From IMG/VR virus record IMGVR_UViG_3300026274_000001: a DNA stretch of 64,000 nt; one strand, 5' to 3'. The notes beneath the pieces were generated by a model. It was given only the letters and a program-made list of their open reading frames with translations. It did no database searches and was not told the DNA's origin. Positions 59,561 to 64,000 of the stretch are shown piece after piece; within the stretch, counting starts at the first letter, position 1; each line of letters begins with the position of its first letter. Made by a program: the position numbers and the translations under genes. Origin of the DNA: a virus. Taxonomy: Duplodnaviria; Caudoviricetes.

Positions 59561-59845
59561 ATGTTTCTGCCTTTTTACCATAAGAACAAAATGAACGGTG
59601 TAAAAATAGAATGGTATCGCTTTGTCGATACTTACGATATGTTTCATAAGAACGGATTTCGATCGGGTCACAATTTTATTATTTCGGTGGAAAAGGAAAT
59701 AACAAAAGATTTGATTGTTCGTATGACCGACATTGCTCCAGACTTAAAGATTGTTGCCAAGCAGCCAGATTTCGATAACAACCGACTATTCGTTTCTGTG
59801 GAAAGTGATGCTGAAGCGGTGGCATTGAAGATAGGGCTCGTATGA
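59561..59845 (+). CDS. FKLxW-array member 1 (divergent)
   Basis: VESDAEAVALKIGL. Confidence 0.65.
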   Translation: MFLPFYHKNKMNGVKIEWYRFVDTYDMFHKNGFRSGHNFIISVEKEITKDLIVRMTDIAPDLKIVAKQPDFDNNRLFVSVESDAEAVALKIGLV

Positions 59846-59862
59846 GTTACATCATACCCAGT

Positions 59863-59906
59863 TGGAGTAAAATGATCTCAGGTGGAGTAAAATGATCTCA
59901 GGTGGA
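59863..59906 (+). repeat. 20-bp direct tandem duplication
   Basis: TGGAGTAAAATGATCTCAGG x2 plus TGGA. Confidence 0.95.
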
Positions 59907-60248
59907 TTTCCTATTGGCATGATACCTATGCTTACCGCTGTTCAGGGTCGTCAGACGGGTAAAACATCAATGATGCGTGACTTCTGGGCTTACACTTTGA
60001 AAGAAAAATGGAATACTTTACGAAGGCAGAAAAACGGCACCTGGAAGATCACCATTTCTAATGACATCGAAGAAAAGATCGAATGGTGTCGTAATGCTTT
60101 GGGTGATGGTGGTAACGGTAAGAAAAGCCTATGGCGTATCAACTGGATTGAATATAGGGCTCTCCAAGGCTATGAGGGAGAGTCGATTACACTTTGGCTT
60201 AAAGATGACGCGGCGGTGCTCTTTAAGCTTCGTTGGTGTGTAGGATGA
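59892..60248 (+). CDS. FKLxW-array member 2
   Basis: KIEWCRNALG...LKDDAAVLFKLRW. Confidence 0.75.
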   Translation: MISGGFPIGMIPMLTAVQGRQTGKTSMMRDFWAYTLKEKWNTLRRQKNGTWKITISNDIEEKIEWCRNALGDGGNGKKSLWRINWIEYRALQGYEGESITLWLKDDAAVLFKLRWCVG

Positions 60249-60508
60249 GGTTGTATCAATACAAAGCAGCAGGTAGTAACTGGTATGTCATAGCAACGTT
60301 CAATGTTATTAAACACGGTGACTATAGCGTTCAGGATATGATCGAGGCTTGGTGCACTGACACGTACGACGCAACCACAAAAACCAAATGCTATGTTGGG
60401 ATGGATGCTCCAGTTGAGAGCACTTGGGGTTTTGGTAGTGGTGACTATTATTTCAAAAACGAATCTGATGCATTTATGTTCGTACTTAGGTGGTCTGGTG
60501 AAAAGTAG
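60245..60508 (+). CDS. FKLxW-array member 3
   Basis: IEAWC...FKNESDAFMFVLRW. Confidence 0.8.
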   Translation: MRLYQYKAAGSNWYVIATFNVIKHGDYSVQDMIEAWCTDTYDATTKTKCYVGMDAPVESTWGFGSGDYYFKNESDAFMFVLRWSGEK

Positions 60509-60806
60509 CTATAAAGTTGATGTGACCAACTATTTTTCTGTTGGGTGTAAGAACAAGAGTAATCGTATGGTTATTCGTCAAACGATAGTAGACTGGTTGG
60601 AAGCCCACGTTGGTTCAGTGGTTAAACGATTTGCAGACGGTACGCCCAACGCAGGTGATGGTTGGCAGTTTATCAGTAAGACTGAAATAGCTTCAATTGA
60701 ATATGCAGATAACATTGGTCAAACCTACAAGGAAAAGCTCTATCTTGTATTTGATGATGACACCCAAGCAATGCATTTTAAACTGTCATGGAGTGAACGA
60801 TTATGA
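60498..60806 (+). CDS. FKLxW-array member 4
   Basis: IVDWLEAHVG...GDGW...FDDDTQAMHFKLSW; GTG start inferred. Confidence 0.8.
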   Translation: MKSSYKVDVTNYFSVGCKNKSNRMVIRQTIVDWLEAHVGSVVKRFADGTPNAGDGWQFISKTEIASIEYADNIGQTYKEKLYLVFDDDTQAMHFKLSWSERL

Positions 60807-61120
60807 ATGAAGAACAGGTGAAGTATAAATTTTGGGTCCCTATTTTCGCTGAAGATTCTACGCGTCTTGCCCTGCAACGATGGTTGACTACTCATGTGGG
60901 TCCACTAGTCAGCAGCAACATGAAAACCCAGACCTATGAAGGTAATGGTTGGAGTATGACCGCAGTTGATGGTGATCAACAATACGTAACTATGGATTGG
61001 ATGTTTGAACATGACGAACCAGATCCTAGAGTGTTCGTTTCCGCATATGACGTCACTATCACACACTCTTCACACGCACTACAGTTCAAACTAACGTGGG
61101 CGGATGCACGCGAAAGCTGA
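60803..61120 (+). CDS. FKLxW-array member 5
   Basis: RWLTTHVG...GNGW...ALQFKLTW. Confidence 0.8.
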   Translation: MNEEQVKYKFWVPIFAEDSTRLALQRWLTTHVGPLVSSNMKTQTYEGNGWSMTAVDGDQQYVTMDWMFEHDEPDPRVFVSAYDVTITHSSHALQFKLTWADARES

Positions 61121-61167
61121 TAAACAAAGGCGAGGCGTAGAATTGCGGTGTTATCATATAGTATCAA

Positions 61168-62023: not shown

Positions 62024-62337
62024 TGCAACGAATTAGAATTAATAATTTCCAGATGTTGCCAGAAATTATAGAATGGCTTGACGAGCATGTTGGTGACACT
62101 GTAGATATCACAAAGCGTTACGATGTGATACATGAAGCTATTGGTGAAGGTTGGTCGATAGTTAGAACGTTGATTAGTTATCCGGCATCAGACGCGGTAT
62201 TGCGTGAAATTGGATTCAAAAATGTCAATGAAGTTAGCTCTGAATATCGTAATAATTTGTATCCAAAGGCTATTCATTATTATATCAATTTCGATGACGA
62301 TACACAAGCAGTTCAATTTAAACTAAGCTATGATTAA
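62023..62337 (+). CDS. FKLxW-array member 9
   Basis: IIEWLDEHVG...GEGW...FDDDTQAVQFKLSY. Confidence 0.8.
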   Translation: MQRIRINNFQMLPEIIEWLDEHVGDTVDITKRYDVIHEAIGEGWSIVRTLISYPASDAVLREIGFKNVNEVSSEYRNNLYPKAIHYYINFDDDTQAVQFKLSYD

Positions 62338-62632
62338 CGTTGATAAGTACCTTTTTACCGGCAAGTACAAGGATTTGGTGCTGGAAGAATATTATCGTAT
62401 GATCGATTGGTTGGCTGAAAATATTTCTGAGCCTGCACAGGGTTACGAATACGCTTACAACAAAACTGCTCTTGGTCGTCATGGTCCTGGTTGGGAATTG
62501 AGATTGCATTGGATCGGTGAAAAAAGCCCAAAACCCACCGACGGCTTTGGAGTGTCGCGTCGTTCTGTTGAATGGTGTATATTTATTGACGATGACCAAT
62601 ATGCGGTAATGTTCAAATTGATGTGGCCATGA
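62330..62632 (+). CDS. FKLxW-array member 10
   Basis: MIDWLAENI...GPGW...IDDDQYAVMFKLMW. Confidence 0.8.
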   Translation: MINVDKYLFTGKYKDLVLEEYYRMIDWLAENISEPAQGYEYAYNKTALGRHGPGWELRLHWIGEKSPKPTDGFGVSRRSVEWCIFIDDDQYAVMFKLMWP

Positions 62633-62874
62633 CGTTTGACATATCTGAATATATAGATAATCAGTATACCATGGAGTCGTTGTTTAAGCTCCGTGATATT
62701 TTGATCAATGAAGTTGGAATACAACATGAATATAAATCCCAGTATCAGTTATCTGGTGATGGCTGGTGGATTAGTGCTCAGAGCCGTAATCGGTTGGTTA
62801 CTGACCCAATTAAATGGGAACTATATATACAGGATGATAACCTTGCATTGATGTTCAAATTAAAATGGCTATAG
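62629..62874 (+). CDS. FKLxW-array member 11
   Basis: ILINEVG...GDGW...IQDDNLALMFKLKW. Confidence 0.8.
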   Translation: MTFDISEYIDNQYTMESLFKLRDILINEVGIQHEYKSQYQLSGDGWWISAQSRNRLVTDPIKWELYIQDDNLALMFKLKWL

Positions 62875-63101
62875 AAATAACAAAAATTATAAACAAGCAT
62901 ATGGTGGGTCGTCCAGTCGATTCCATGCCATTGTGCATTAGTTGGCTTTACGACGTAATCGGTAAGCAACGAAAACCAGAAGCCAAACTCGAGGGAGTTT
63001 GGTGTGGCCGCGGTTGGGTTGTATACGAGCGTGATACTCGATACATTCTAGAATGTATCGAACCACACAGTGAACAGCGATTTTCTCTTATTTGGTTATG
63101 A
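62865..63101 (+). CDS. FKLxW-array member 12
   Basis: ISWLYDVIG...GRGW...EQRFSLIW. Confidence 0.8.
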   Translation: MAIEITKIINKHMVGRPVDSMPLCISWLYDVIGKQRKPEAKLEGVWCGRGWVVYERDTRYILECIEPHSEQRFSLIWL

Positions 63102-63406
63102 CTCCCGTCGATGTAAAACGATGGACGCTGCGCGATTTTCCGATGATGCACAAGTATACGGAAGCAGTCATACTACAAGAAATAATAGACTGGCTATATG
63201 AATATATGGGTCCCGGCAAAAAGGGTCCATATCCTACCGACAACGGTCCTGACTATACAGTTGCTCACTATGGACCAGGCTGGTTCATGGAAGTTCGAGC
63301 ATATCAGGGATATTGGTCGGATGGTACGTATCACCCTTGCTGTGCTCATTTTATACACTTCGACAGTGACGCACATGAAGTTATGTTCAGGTTGATATGG
63401 CGCTAG
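63098..63406 (+). CDS. FKLxW-array member 13
   Basis: IIDWLYEYMG...GPGW...FDSDAHEVMFRLIW. Confidence 0.8.
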   Translation: MTPVDVKRWTLRDFPMMHKYTEAVILQEIIDWLYEYMGPGKKGPYPTDNGPDYTVAHYGPGWFMEVRAYQGYWSDGTYHPCCAHFIHFDSDAHEVMFRLIWR

Positions 63407-63621
63407 ATATAACAAAGATGGGATTAGCTGGTATAGGTCTTGATGTAATAAAATGGCTATGCCAGAATGTAGGTGGCTTCCATAATCTCAAAAACACTTG
63501 GTTGTATGATCATGAAATGATGAAAGGCGATGGATGGAAAATTTACACCTATCACAAAACCACGTTCATCTCAATTGATGATCCGCTACTTGAAATGCAA
63601 TTTAAACTCGTATGGCTTTAG
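63397..63621 (+). CDS. FKLxW-array member 14
   Basis: IKWLCQNVG...GDGW...IDDPLLEMQFKLVW. Confidence 0.8.
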   Translation: MALDITKMGLAGIGLDVIKWLCQNVGGFHNLKNTWLYDHEMMKGDGWKIYTYHKTTFISIDDPLLEMQFKLVWL

Positions 63622-63905
63622 AAATAGAAAAACTAACAAAGTGTGTTAGATCTCAAATGGGTGTCCCAACCGTAACTGGGATAATCATGAAGTTGCCAGA
63701 CGATATACTATCTTGGTTAACGGGTCATATTGGACCAATTGAACGTGAACGTTCTGAACCATACAATAACGTGTGGAAGAATGTCGTTTATAAAGGTAAT
63801 GGCTGGCGTACCTCAGCTCACGCCGAATTGTATTCAAGGTGCGGTTATTGGCTTTATATAGATGACGATGCATTGGCACTACAGTTCAAATTAACATGGC
63901 TTTAG
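63612..63905 (+). CDS. FKLxW-array member 15
   Basis: ILSWLTGHIG...GNGW...IDDDALALQFKLTW. Confidence 0.8.
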   Translation: MALEIEKLTKCVRSQMGVPTVTGIIMKLPDDILSWLTGHIGPIERERSEPYNNVWKNVVYKGNGWRTSAHAELYSRCGYWLYIDDDALALQFKLTWL

Positions 63906-64000
63906 ACATCAGTACCCTTTCAGAAGTTCGAGTCATTGACAAAGCGCGAGGTTTGCATGTACTCGAAATCAATAATAGGGTCATCAAATGGTTACATGAT
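63896..64000 (+). CDS. FKLxW-array member 16 (truncated by window edge)
   Basis: MALDIS...VIKWLHD, open at window end. Confidence 0.7.
   Translation, partial: MALDISTLSEVRVIDKARGLHVLEINNRVIKWLHD

What the first reader, a model, noticed from the sequence alone, without database searches (positions are those of the whole stretch)
59561..64000. Tandem array of at least 15 diverged small paralogs (W-L..G / G-x-G-W / F-DD..A..FKL-x-W)
Seen: 16 consecutive 74-118-aa ORFs, running off the window edge, share a scaffold (I-x-x-W-L-x3-V-G, G-x-G-W, F/I-D-D-D-x2-A-x2-F-K-L-x-W) with hypervariable N-termini and loops and no visible nucleotide repeats. I recognise no named family. Inference: a diversified binder library on a small fold, like a phage antibody or effector repertoire (anti-defence, receptor or toxin decoys), expressed as one coupled operon.
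Basis: partly seen in the sequence, partly recalled or inferred. Interest (0 to 1): 0.8.

Follow-up and report, generated by a model that had tools for sequence, protein, structure and literature searches.

The report
Giant small-paralog array, soil jumbo phage
An uncultured soil jumbo phage carries a 14-kb run of about 48 tightly packed genes for small, very diverged copies of one undescribed protein fold, one of the largest gene-family expansions seen in a phage, whose function (most likely binding many different host proteins) is still untested.

Summary
Window 59892-64000 carries 14 complete genes and one cut gene of a single family. Twelve match the family HMM at E 1e-14 to 1e-28, and two reach about 91% by hhalign. 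The first ORF (59561) is not supported.

A 99.7%-identical contig shows the window cuts a 14.1-kb array of 48 plus-strand genes. 37 are well supported and 5 more are likely members. 35 of 47 junctions overlap or nearly touch.

Two AlphaFold models (pLDDT 81-83) give one beta-alpha-beta4-alpha fold. It has no convincing match in PDB or AFDB and no Pfam, PHROG, NCBIfam or PADLOC hit. A search of 1.8 billion proteins finds 244 clusters, all small proteins. Arrays also occur in other large-phage lineages.

The copies are old, at most 41% identical. They lie in the same order as 1:1 orthologs in two related ~300-kb phages and are under purifying selection. Positions that are random between paralogs stay 63% and 47% identical between orthologs.

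Best reading, at moderate confidence: a fixed, inherited repertoire of non-enzymatic binders, co-expressed in two translationally coupled units, not a hypermutating library. Other first-stage readers noted the same array in overlapping windows of this genome.

The parts
59506..59578 (+). Conserved non-coding element just upstream of the array. It has a promoter-like box (CTGGCA-16 nt-TAAAAT with TG) followed by a 9-10 bp hairpin and a U-run (terminator-like).
   Evidence: Sequence; promoter-like site. It is nearly invariant in three phage species, with a compensatory A-U to G-C change in the stem. The hairpin folds at -18.5 kcal/mol, z -6.1. It is unique in the window.
59591..59845 (+). First small ORF after the hairpin. 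The 59561 ATG lies inside the hairpin loop, so 59591 is the likelier start. Doubtful member: only a ...DAEAVALKIGLV tail.
   Evidence: hhalign against the family profile gives 7.7%, while controls score at most 2.6%.
59892..60248 (+). Remote family member, 118 aa, basic (pI 9.6).
   Evidence: hhalign 91% with its orthologs and 85% alone. HMM E 9e-4 after iteration.
60245..60508 (+). Remote family member, 87 aa.
   Evidence: hhalign 90.8% with its orthologs and 89% alone.
60567..60806 (+). Family member, 79 aa.
   Evidence: HMM E 6.5e-21; hhalign 99.3%.
60803..61120 (+). Family member, 105 aa.
   Evidence: HMM E 1.1e-19; hhalign 99.3%.
61183..61470 (+). Family member, 95 aa (100 aa if read from 61168). 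This is the protein of AlphaFold model 1.
   Evidence: HMM E 4e-28. Model pLDDT 81, pTM 0.71.
61440..61754 (+). Family member, 104 aa.
   Evidence: HMM E 5e-23.
61757..62023 (+). Family member, 88 aa.
   Evidence: HMM E 4e-24.
62023..62337 (+). Family member, 104 aa, with a long loop insert.
   Evidence: HMM E 2e-20.
62330..62632 (+). Family member, 100 aa.
   Evidence: HMM E 1.3e-25.
62629..62874 (+). Family member, 81 aa. It carries a strain-polymorphic in-frame 27-nt insertion site at 62775.
   Evidence: HMM E 1.7e-22. Indel seen.
62865..63101 (+). Family member, 78 aa. Its ATG overlaps the previous gene's terminal Trp codon (ATGGCnnTAG).
   Evidence: HMM E 1.8e-19. Junctions.
63098..63406 (+). 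Family member, 102 aa.
   Evidence: HMM E 8e-26.
63397..63621 (+). Family member, 74 aa, joined by the 10-nt overlap.
   Evidence: HMM E 1e-18.
63612..63905 (+). Family member, 97 aa. This is the protein of AlphaFold model 2.
   Evidence: HMM E 6e-25. Model pLDDT 82.9, pTM 0.71.
63896..64000 (+). Start of the next member, cut by the window edge. In the near-identical contig L005 the array runs on for 33 genes in all beyond this point, counting this cut gene, to about window-equivalent 73687.
4786..5456 (+). Two dispersed members outside the array (4786-5217 and 5214-5456), next to helicase genes.
   Evidence: HMM E about 1e-6; sequences; hhalign 77% and 92%.
38958..39320 (+). A dispersed member just after the Pth2-like gene. 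The true start probably lies inside this ORF.
   Evidence: HMM E 4e-8; hhalign 91%.

Best explanation
The stretch is the first third of a 14.1-kb, 48-gene tandem array. The array belongs to a very large multigene family of an uncultured soil jumbo phage. Related contigs are 307-327 kb, and the host is probably a betaproteobacterium.

Each gene encodes a 65-120 aa soluble, mostly mildly acidic protein with a single domain. Its predicted fold is a beta-alpha-beta4-alpha two-layer sandwich.

The residues conserved across the family are almost all hydrophobic or glycine: W-L and G in helix 1, G-x-G-W in the beta2-beta3 hairpin, and A..F.L.W in the C-terminal helix. These build the core, so the domain is a scaffold and not an enzyme.

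The N-terminal segment and the loops differ completely between paralogs but are kept between orthologs. This means each copy has its own conserved surface.

I infer that each copy binds a different partner, most likely a host protein or a competing-element protein that is blocked or redirected during infection (host takeover or counter-defence).

I also infer that the whole set is made together as a cocktail from two long polycistronic units. Translation would pass from gene to gene by stop/start overlap, because most genes have no Shine-Dalgarno sequence of their own.

Shown here: the family, its fold prediction, the array anatomy, its age, its purifying selection, and its restriction to large phages.

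Inferred only: binding, the targets and the timing of expression.
For: Family and copy number:
- HMM E 1e-14 to 4e-28 for 12 window genes.
- 37 of 48 array genes reach hhalign 85% or more, against at most 2.6% for 11 flanking control genes.
- Further copies lie at 4786-5456 and 38958-39320 in the window and on the minus strand 8 kb past the array.

Fold and lack of a known relative:
- The same fold was predicted for two paralogs.
- Nearly invariant columns are W, L, G, G, G, W, F, L only. No Pfam, PHROG, NCBIfam or PADLOC family recurs among the members scanned.

Paralog-specific constraint:
- Variable positions are 9% identical between paralogs. Between orthologs they are 63% (L001) and 47% (L002) identical. 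Scaffold positions are 84% and 77% identical.
- dN/dS is 0.06-0.5 with a median about 0.13, similar to flanking genes.

Coupled expression architecture:
- 35 of 47 junctions overlap or lie within 2 nt, and seven share the ATGGCnnTAG overlap. The upstream sequences are coding sequence with no Shine-Dalgarno.
- A conserved promoter-like box plus hairpin lies upstream. A conserved bidirectional terminator and a promoter region lie inside the array.

Restricted to phages, and repeatedly arrayed near replication genes:
- 244 clusters among 1.8 billion representatives, all proteins of 69-138 aa.
- ESM Atlas neighbour clusters are 95-100% viral.
- Arrays occur in other lineages (L017 lies between a DEAD helicase and DnaB; L018).

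Proteins are soluble with median pI 5.3.
Against: No target, partner or phenotype is known. No homology to any characterised anti-defence or host-takeover protein was found.

Counter-defence loci usually turn over fast. This array is instead collinear with 1:1 orthologs across phages that have diverged to 45-89% protein identity, and it evolves no faster than its neighbours. That fits a core, lineage-essential role as well as it fits an arms race.

Expression is not shown. Metatranscriptome contigs cover the array and 16 kb of flank equally, which DNA carry-over would also give.

dS is saturated, so the dN/dS values are rough.
Confidence: 0.45

Rival explanations
1. The proteins are packaged or ejected virion proteins, internal-protein-like. 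The shared N-terminal M-x-x-D-I-T/S strand would act as a targeting or processing signal, and the variable body would be delivered into the host with the DNA.
For: Many members start with a similar short motif: MALDIT, MAIEIT, MTFDIS, VELDIT. From my own knowledge, T4 internal proteins and jumbo-phage inner-body proteins come in polymorphic or paralogous sets and include anti-restriction factors.
Against: The array and the dispersed copies sit among replication and nucleotide-metabolism genes, not morphogenesis genes. In both models the N-terminal motif is predicted as strand beta1 of the fold, not a detachable leader. About 50 to 100 different cargo species is far beyond known cases. No conserved protease site is evident.
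Confidence: 0.1
2. The genes are an array of immunity or antidote proteins, each neutralising a different toxin. The toxins could be polymorphic toxins of bacteria, effectors of rival phages, or the phage's own. Immunity-gene arrays in polymorphic toxin loci would be the model.
For: Heterogeneous tandem arrays of small, diverged alpha+beta proteins without enzymatic motifs are typical of immunity-gene clusters (my own knowledge of polymorphic toxin systems). The proteins are small, soluble and acidic.
Against: No toxin-like gene lies inside or next to the array in any of the loci read. No SUKH or Imm Pfam family recurs among 128 members; there is one chance-level Imm33 hit at E 0.12. The family is labelled viral, not bacterial.
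Confidence: 0.08
3. The proteins bind small molecules, acting as sponges or carriers, for example for immune signalling nucleotides or metabolites. The paralogs would differ in pocket specificity.
For: The fold is a small alpha/beta sandwich. The weak structural neighbours include ligand-binding modules: ACT, START-like, CYTH, and a fatty-acid-binding STK_08120 (Z 4-6). A moderately conserved acidic D-D-D turn precedes the last helix.
Against: All structural matches are at background level (best Z 6.4, against a typical best of 7-8 for unmatched models). No conserved polar pocket residues exist. From my own knowledge, known phage sponges are single-copy genes.
Confidence: 0.07
4. The paralogs assemble with one another into a large hetero-oligomeric structure or condensate in the infected cell. 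In that case the many copies would be subunits, not independent binders.
For: Translationally coupled co-expression of dozens of related subunits would give near-equal amounts. Orthologs are strictly retained in every relative. An exposed edge strand, beta1, could pair between subunits.
Against: Dispersed single copies, and 1-2-copy loci in another lineage, argue that a copy can work alone. Paralog surfaces share almost nothing (9% identity). No precedent is known.
Confidence: 0.08

Closest known systems
Lineage-specific expansion of about 35 zinc-ribbon proteins in Bacillus phage G, called 'unprecedented' in the jumbo-phage survey of Iyer et al. 2021 (PMC7824862)
   Same: Both are one small domain multiplied to dozens of copies within a single jumbo-phage genome, with unknown function.
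   Different: This is a different fold with no metal-binding cysteines. It is arranged as long, translationally coupled tandem arrays of 48 genes in one run, with more copies elsewhere. It is conserved gene for gene across related phages, and it occurs in several phage lineages.
Multigene families of large eukaryotic DNA viruses (ASFV MGF110/360/505, poxvirus Bcl-2-like and ankyrin families); from my own knowledge
   Same: Both are tandem arrays of old, strongly diverged paralogs on one scaffold with no enzymatic motifs. Those families are thought or shown to bind many different host factors.
   Different: There is no sequence or fold relation. The virus here is a bacterial virus, and the genes sit in polycistronic coupled units. 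Function here is untested.
Uncharacterised proteins of 'uncultured Caudovirales phage' in BFVD/UniProt (A0A6J5KSM5, A0A6J7WNC3, A0A6J5TAG8) and unnamed viral clusters of the ESM Atlas
   Same: These are the best structural matches: TM 0.53-0.78, Foldseek probability 1.0 at 18-19% identity, and Atlas TM 0.63-0.80. They are probably true family members.
   Different: None has a name, a Pfam family or a studied function. Their genomic arrangement was not examined.
   Same: Both are long runs of small genes of unknown function in the early or replication part of a large myovirus-like genome. A promoter-like box with a hairpin stands in front of this array.
   Different: Those regions hold unrelated ORFans, each with its own cassette, and they shuffle quickly. 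Here all genes are one family, share two regulatory regions, are translationally coupled, and keep their order between species.

Membership tests
Phage multigene family / lineage-specific expansion in tandem | Many genes in one genome are demonstrably homologous to one another. | tested here: met
   HMM E 1e-14 to 4e-28 for 12 window genes. 37 of 48 array genes reach hhalign 85% or more, against at most 2.6% for controls.
Phage multigene family / lineage-specific expansion in tandem | The genes are arranged head to tail on one strand. | tested here: met
   48 consecutive + strand genes; 35 of 47 junctions overlap or lie within 2 nt.
Phage multigene family / lineage-specific expansion in tandem | The copies are functional (intact and under purifying selection), not decaying duplicates. 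| tested here: met
   Collinear intact orthologs in L001 and L002 with dN/dS 0.06-0.5. Paralog-specific positions are 63% and 47% identical between orthologs.
Known anti-defence or defence-associated protein families (as held in Pfam, PHROGs, PADLOC, NCBIfam) | A significant profile match to a described family. | tested here: not met
   No family recurs among 128 members in Pfam or PHROGs, nor among 12 members in NCBIfam or PADLOC. A dedicated anti-defence library was not available.
Diversity-generating-retroelement targets or other actively hypermutated binder libraries | Template/variable nucleotide repeat pairs, or near-identical recent copies that differ at a few sites. | tested here: not met
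   The only repeat is a degenerate 41-nt block over the C-terminal motif. Paralogs are at most 41% identical. Orthologs are conserved. No RT gene was seen in the loci read.
SUKH/Imm immunity proteins of polymorphic toxin systems | A profile or fold match to a SUKH or Imm family. | tested here: inconclusive
   No recurrent Pfam hit. No such chain appears among the top structural rows. This absence does not exclude a remote relation.
SUKH/Imm immunity proteins of polymorphic toxin systems | Linkage to toxin genes. | tested here: not met
   No toxin-domain gene lies within or beside the arrays in L001, L002, L005, L013, L017 or L018.
T4-type internal (capsid-targeted) proteins | A cleavable N-terminal capsid-targeting sequence and presence in virions. 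| not testable with these tools
   The shared N-terminal motif is predicted to be strand beta1 of the fold. No virion data exist for this uncultured phage.
KA1, ACT, CYTH and other beta-alpha-beta4-alpha type sandwiches | Structural similarity clearly above background. | tested here: inconclusive
   Best Z is 6.4 (1v8c) for model 1 and 5.3 (3c6k) for model 2. KA1 scores Z 4.1-4.5. The typical best Z for unmatched models is 7-8. Foldseek against PDB and AFDB gives no hit at E 0.001 or better.

The most novel reading that the evidence does not exclude
Large environmental phages carry a germ-line repertoire of roughly a hundred different binders built on one previously undescribed mini-fold. The repertoire would take up several percent of the genome and be made as coupled cocktails. 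Each binder would neutralise or redirect a distinct host or rival-element protein. This would be a bacterial-virus counterpart of the ASFV and poxvirus multigene families and the largest single-family expansion known in a phage.
Probability: 0.35. Interest if true: 0.85.

Novelty: new variant of a known kind. Interest (0 to 1): 0.72.

Why it matters
The largest single-domain expansion reported in the 2021 jumbo-phage survey was about 35 copies and was called unprecedented (PMC7824862). This array alone has 37-42 supported copies in one run. More copies lie elsewhere in the genome, and the family recurs as arrays in other large-phage lineages.

The family is absent from Pfam, PHROGs and 50,697 deposited phage genomes. 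A sizeable part of the coding capacity of abundant soil, peat and freshwater jumbo phages is therefore one uncharacterised family.

Because every paralog is conserved between species, each probably has its own job. If those jobs are protein binding, the family is a ready-made natural library of small, stable scaffolds with defined targets in bacterial physiology or immunity. It would also be a tractable system for asking why giant phage genomes grow by paralog expansion.

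Tried and rejected
Finding the source or close relatives:
- A megablast of the 5 kb against deposited phages found no match.
- tblastn of two members against the same collection found nothing.
- An exact-pattern scan and two protein-guided scans of IMG/VR viral contigs found nothing. The family alignment was too variable for that tool.
- No whole genome is held for this window, and the metagenome records behind my loci cannot be searched whole. I therefore could not count the copies genome-wide.

Function by homology or fold:
- Fold searches against PDB, BFVD, AFDB clusters, AFDB Swiss-Prot, the ESM Atlas and two all-against-all VIA runs gave only uncharacterised viral proteins or background-level matches.
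- A PDB sequence profile search gave only chance hits.
- A search for longer, fused forms found none, which is weak evidence.

ClpP link:
- In one ~360-kb phage lineage, 1-2 copies follow a ClpP gene with a stop/start overlap. This raised the idea of a ClpP link.
- The window holds no ClpP.
- All three ClpP-linked loci (L010, L011/L012, L014) share the same gene order, so they count as one lineage and one observation.
- The complex prediction of ClpP with a member returned 'no answer' (score 0.00). That is no evidence either way.

Expression:
- Four soil metatranscriptome runs hold the array, but their contigs cover the whole 20 kb laid at similar depth. Transcription is therefore not shown, and DNA carry-over is possible.
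- An apparent 'goes back 122' joint at the window end is a placement artefact of the repeated junction motif.

Other checks:
- Sigma-70 promoter-like sites within the array are not above chance (20 found, 15.9 expected).
- An Rfam scan of 58000-64000 gave only sub-threshold snoRNA-like noise.
- A sigma-54 reading of the TGGCA...TGC box fails on spacing (my own reading).
- Two look-ups of distant members hit contigs too short to be informative.

Full report
**What is in the window**

From 59561 to the window end the + strand is filled with small ORFs of 74-118 aa. All the larger ORFs of the 64-kb window (49 of 150 aa or more) that are not shadowed by a longer + strand ORF lie on the + strand. 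They include SF2 and DnaB-type helicases, class I ribonucleotide reductase and an Rnl-type RNA ligase. A two-piece tmRNA matches the betaproteobacterial model. The best matches to deposited phages are below 40% identity for the reductase. I conclude that this is a large, uncultured phage, possibly of a betaproteobacterium.

**Is the family real?**

- An alignment of 12 ORFs has M, L, G, G, W invariant and W, G, F, L nearly so.
- Its HMM finds those 12 at E 1e-18 to 4e-28 (the genes it was built from) and gives no hit on the opposite strand.
- A wider alignment of 128 family members from the databases keeps W-L, G, G-x-G-W and F-x-L in at least 90% of rows.
- The two ORFs at 59892 and 60245 are remote members. 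hhalign gives about 91% when each is aligned with its orthologs. Eleven flanking genes treated the same way score at most 2.6%.
- The first ORF (59561) scores 7.7% and is not supported. Its listed ATG also lies in the loop of a strong hairpin, so 59591 is the likelier start.
- The cut ORF at 63896 is a full member in a sister contig.
- Verdict: 15 of the 16 ORFs hold.

**The array is much larger than the window shows**

- Contig L005 is 99.67% identical to window 53639-64000 and continues downstream.
- The array has 48 consecutive + strand genes over 14.1 kb, from window-equivalent 59561 to about 73687.
- By hhalign, 37 genes score 85% or more, 5 score 13-67% and carry the C-terminal motif, and 6 are undecided.
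- 35 of 47 junctions overlap or lie within 2 nt. Ten are ATGA-type 4-nt overlaps. Seven are a 10-nt ATGGCnnTAG/TAA overlap in which the next ATG straddles the conserved final Trp codon.
- Most starts are preceded by coding sequence with no Shine-Dalgarno. This points to termination-reinitiation coupling.
- A roughly 75-nt element in front of the array holds a promoter-like box, then a hairpin with a U-run. It is almost invariant in three phage species, with one compensatory stem change.
- After the 28th gene comes a conserved bidirectional terminator. It is followed by a conserved 41-aa hydrophobic peptide gene on the minus strand and a conserved upstream region for the remaining 20 genes.
- I infer from this that the array is at least two transcription units, not one operon.

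**Copies outside the array**

- In the window: 4786-5217 and 5214-5456 next to helicase genes, 38958-39320 after a Pth2-like gene, and a weaker candidate at 14764-15072.
- Four more lie on the minus strand about 8.4 kb past the array end. Another first-stage note places a second array there.
- I could not count the whole genome.

**Fold**

- Two paralogs were modelled with different alignments. Both give the order beta1, alpha1, four meander strands, alpha2 (pLDDT 81.3 and 82.9, pTM 0.71).
- Foldseek finds nothing at E 0.001 or better in PDB, AFDB clusters or Swiss-Prot models.
- Exhaustive VIA alignment gives best Z values of 6.4 and 5.3, below the typical 7-8 background.
- The only good matches are uncharacterised proteins of uncultured phages (BFVD TM 0.53-0.78) and unnamed viral clusters in the ESM Atlas (TM 0.63-0.80).
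- No Pfam, PHROG, NCBIfam, PADLOC or PDB-sequence family is hit.

**Distribution**

- A profile search of 1.84 billion representatives finds 244 clusters at E 0.001 or better. The 150 listed are all proteins of 69-138 aa.
- No longer fused form was found.
- About two thirds of the 168 family proteins retrieved in the two searches are only 20-40% identical to this phage's copies. They carry a slightly different tail, F-A-L-K-W.
- Their contexts are large phages:
  - a lineage of about 360 kb with 1-2 copies right after ClpP;
  - a 301-kb contig with at least 6 copies in a run of small genes between a DEAD helicase and DnaB;
  - a 20-kb contig with at least 15 copies among about 38 small genes.
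- Runs holding the window's sequence come from soil and peat metagenomes.
- Deposited phage genomes give no tblastn hit.

**Evolution**

- Paralogs within the array average 25% identity over match columns, with a maximum of 41%. Neighbours are barely more alike than distant pairs (26.1% against 24.7%, permutation p 0.02).
- At DNA level only the C-terminal motif and junction repeat, at 60-80% identity. I read this as old duplications.
- The two related phages (L001 from a 327-kb contig, L002 from a 307-kb contig) hold the same genes in the same order as reciprocal best hits. L001 orthologs are 45-89% identical (median about 70%). That equals the flanking genes.
- dN/dS is 0.06-0.52 (median about 0.13) for the array and 0.06-0.15 for the flanks. 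Synonymous sites are saturated, so these values are rough.
- The key test was positions that are random between paralogs (9% identity). These stay 63% and 47% identical between orthologs, and loop inserts stay 60% and 41%. Scaffold positions are 84% and 77% identical.
- Each copy therefore has its own conserved sequence outside the shared core.
- Close strains differ by very few substitutions, plus one in-frame 27-nt loop indel.

**Interpretation**

- The conserved residues are core-building, and no invariant polar site exists.
- The proteins are soluble and mostly mildly acidic (median pI 5.3).
- The family is known only from large phages, and it sits with replication-type genes in several lineages.
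- Together with paralog-specific conserved surfaces, this fits a non-enzymatic scaffold whose copies each bind a different partner.
- The partners are most plausibly host or rival-element proteins that are blocked or redirected during infection. The set would be produced together from two coupled polycistronic units.
- I put this at 0.45. No partner is known, and the gene-for-gene stability is unusual for counter-defence loci.
- The rivals are virion cargo, immunity proteins, ligand binders and a hetero-oligomeric assembly. Each is at about 0.1 or less and is set out separately with its own test.
- Non-functional duplicates are excluded by the selection data.

**Comparison with what is known**

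The jumbo-phage survey of Iyer et al. called a roughly 35-copy zinc-ribbon expansion in phage G unprecedented (PMC7824862). The present array alone matches or exceeds that. It belongs to a different, undescribed family and is conserved across species and lineages. In kind it is a lineage-specific multigene family, which is a known phenomenon. In scale, arrangement and family it is a new variant.

Other first-stage readers noted the same array and further arrays in overlapping and neighbouring windows of this genome. I confirmed the 48-gene count and the Trp/ATG overlap myself. The further arrays I confirmed only in part.

Noticed in passing
L005:13978-14145 (window-equivalent about 67590-67756, beyond the window): Inside the array lie a conserved bidirectional terminator (AAAGCCACC-CGAA-GGTGGCTTT, z -5.2) and a conserved minus-strand gene for a 41-aa hydrophobic peptide (MMKKIAMIVAAVLVVGLVYVMV...). 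Both are kept in three phage species. The peptide could be a small membrane protein or a toxin-like peptide.
   Followed up: partly
window 62775: A strain-polymorphic in-frame 27-nt (9-codon) insertion lies in a loop of one array gene. It is present in L005 and in two RNA-library assemblies, and absent in the window, in L007 and in one other assembly.
   Followed up: partly
window 59859-59898: A 20-nt tandem duplication (CAGKTGGAGTAAAATGATCT) copies the Shine-Dalgarno sequence and ATG of the second array gene. This gives two possible starts, at 59872 and 59892.
   Followed up: no
L010:9381-10285, L011:9378-10617, L014:9378-10617: In a widespread lineage of about 350-380 kb phages (freshwater and marine samples among them), one or two family copies directly follow a phage ClpP gene with a stop/start overlap. 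The gene order is SprT-like, unknown gene, ClpP, member, then a 5'-nucleotidase further on.
   Followed up: partly
L013:15179-15712 (-), about 5 kb past the array end: A gene here has a Pfam Mtd_N hit (the N-terminal domain of the Bordetella phage tropism determinant). It lies near Smr, NUMOD3 and QueD-like genes. Whether a diversity-generating retroelement is present was not checked.
   Followed up: no
window 33110-33524: A two-piece (permuted) tmRNA with tag ANDNSFAIAA matches Rfam beta_tmRNA at 125.6 bits. This hints at a betaproteobacterial host.
   Followed up: partly
L013:10369-10539: The first gene after the array encodes a 56-aa protein with a weak MazE/AbrB-type antitoxin-fold hit. 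An IMPDH-like gene follows.
   Followed up: no
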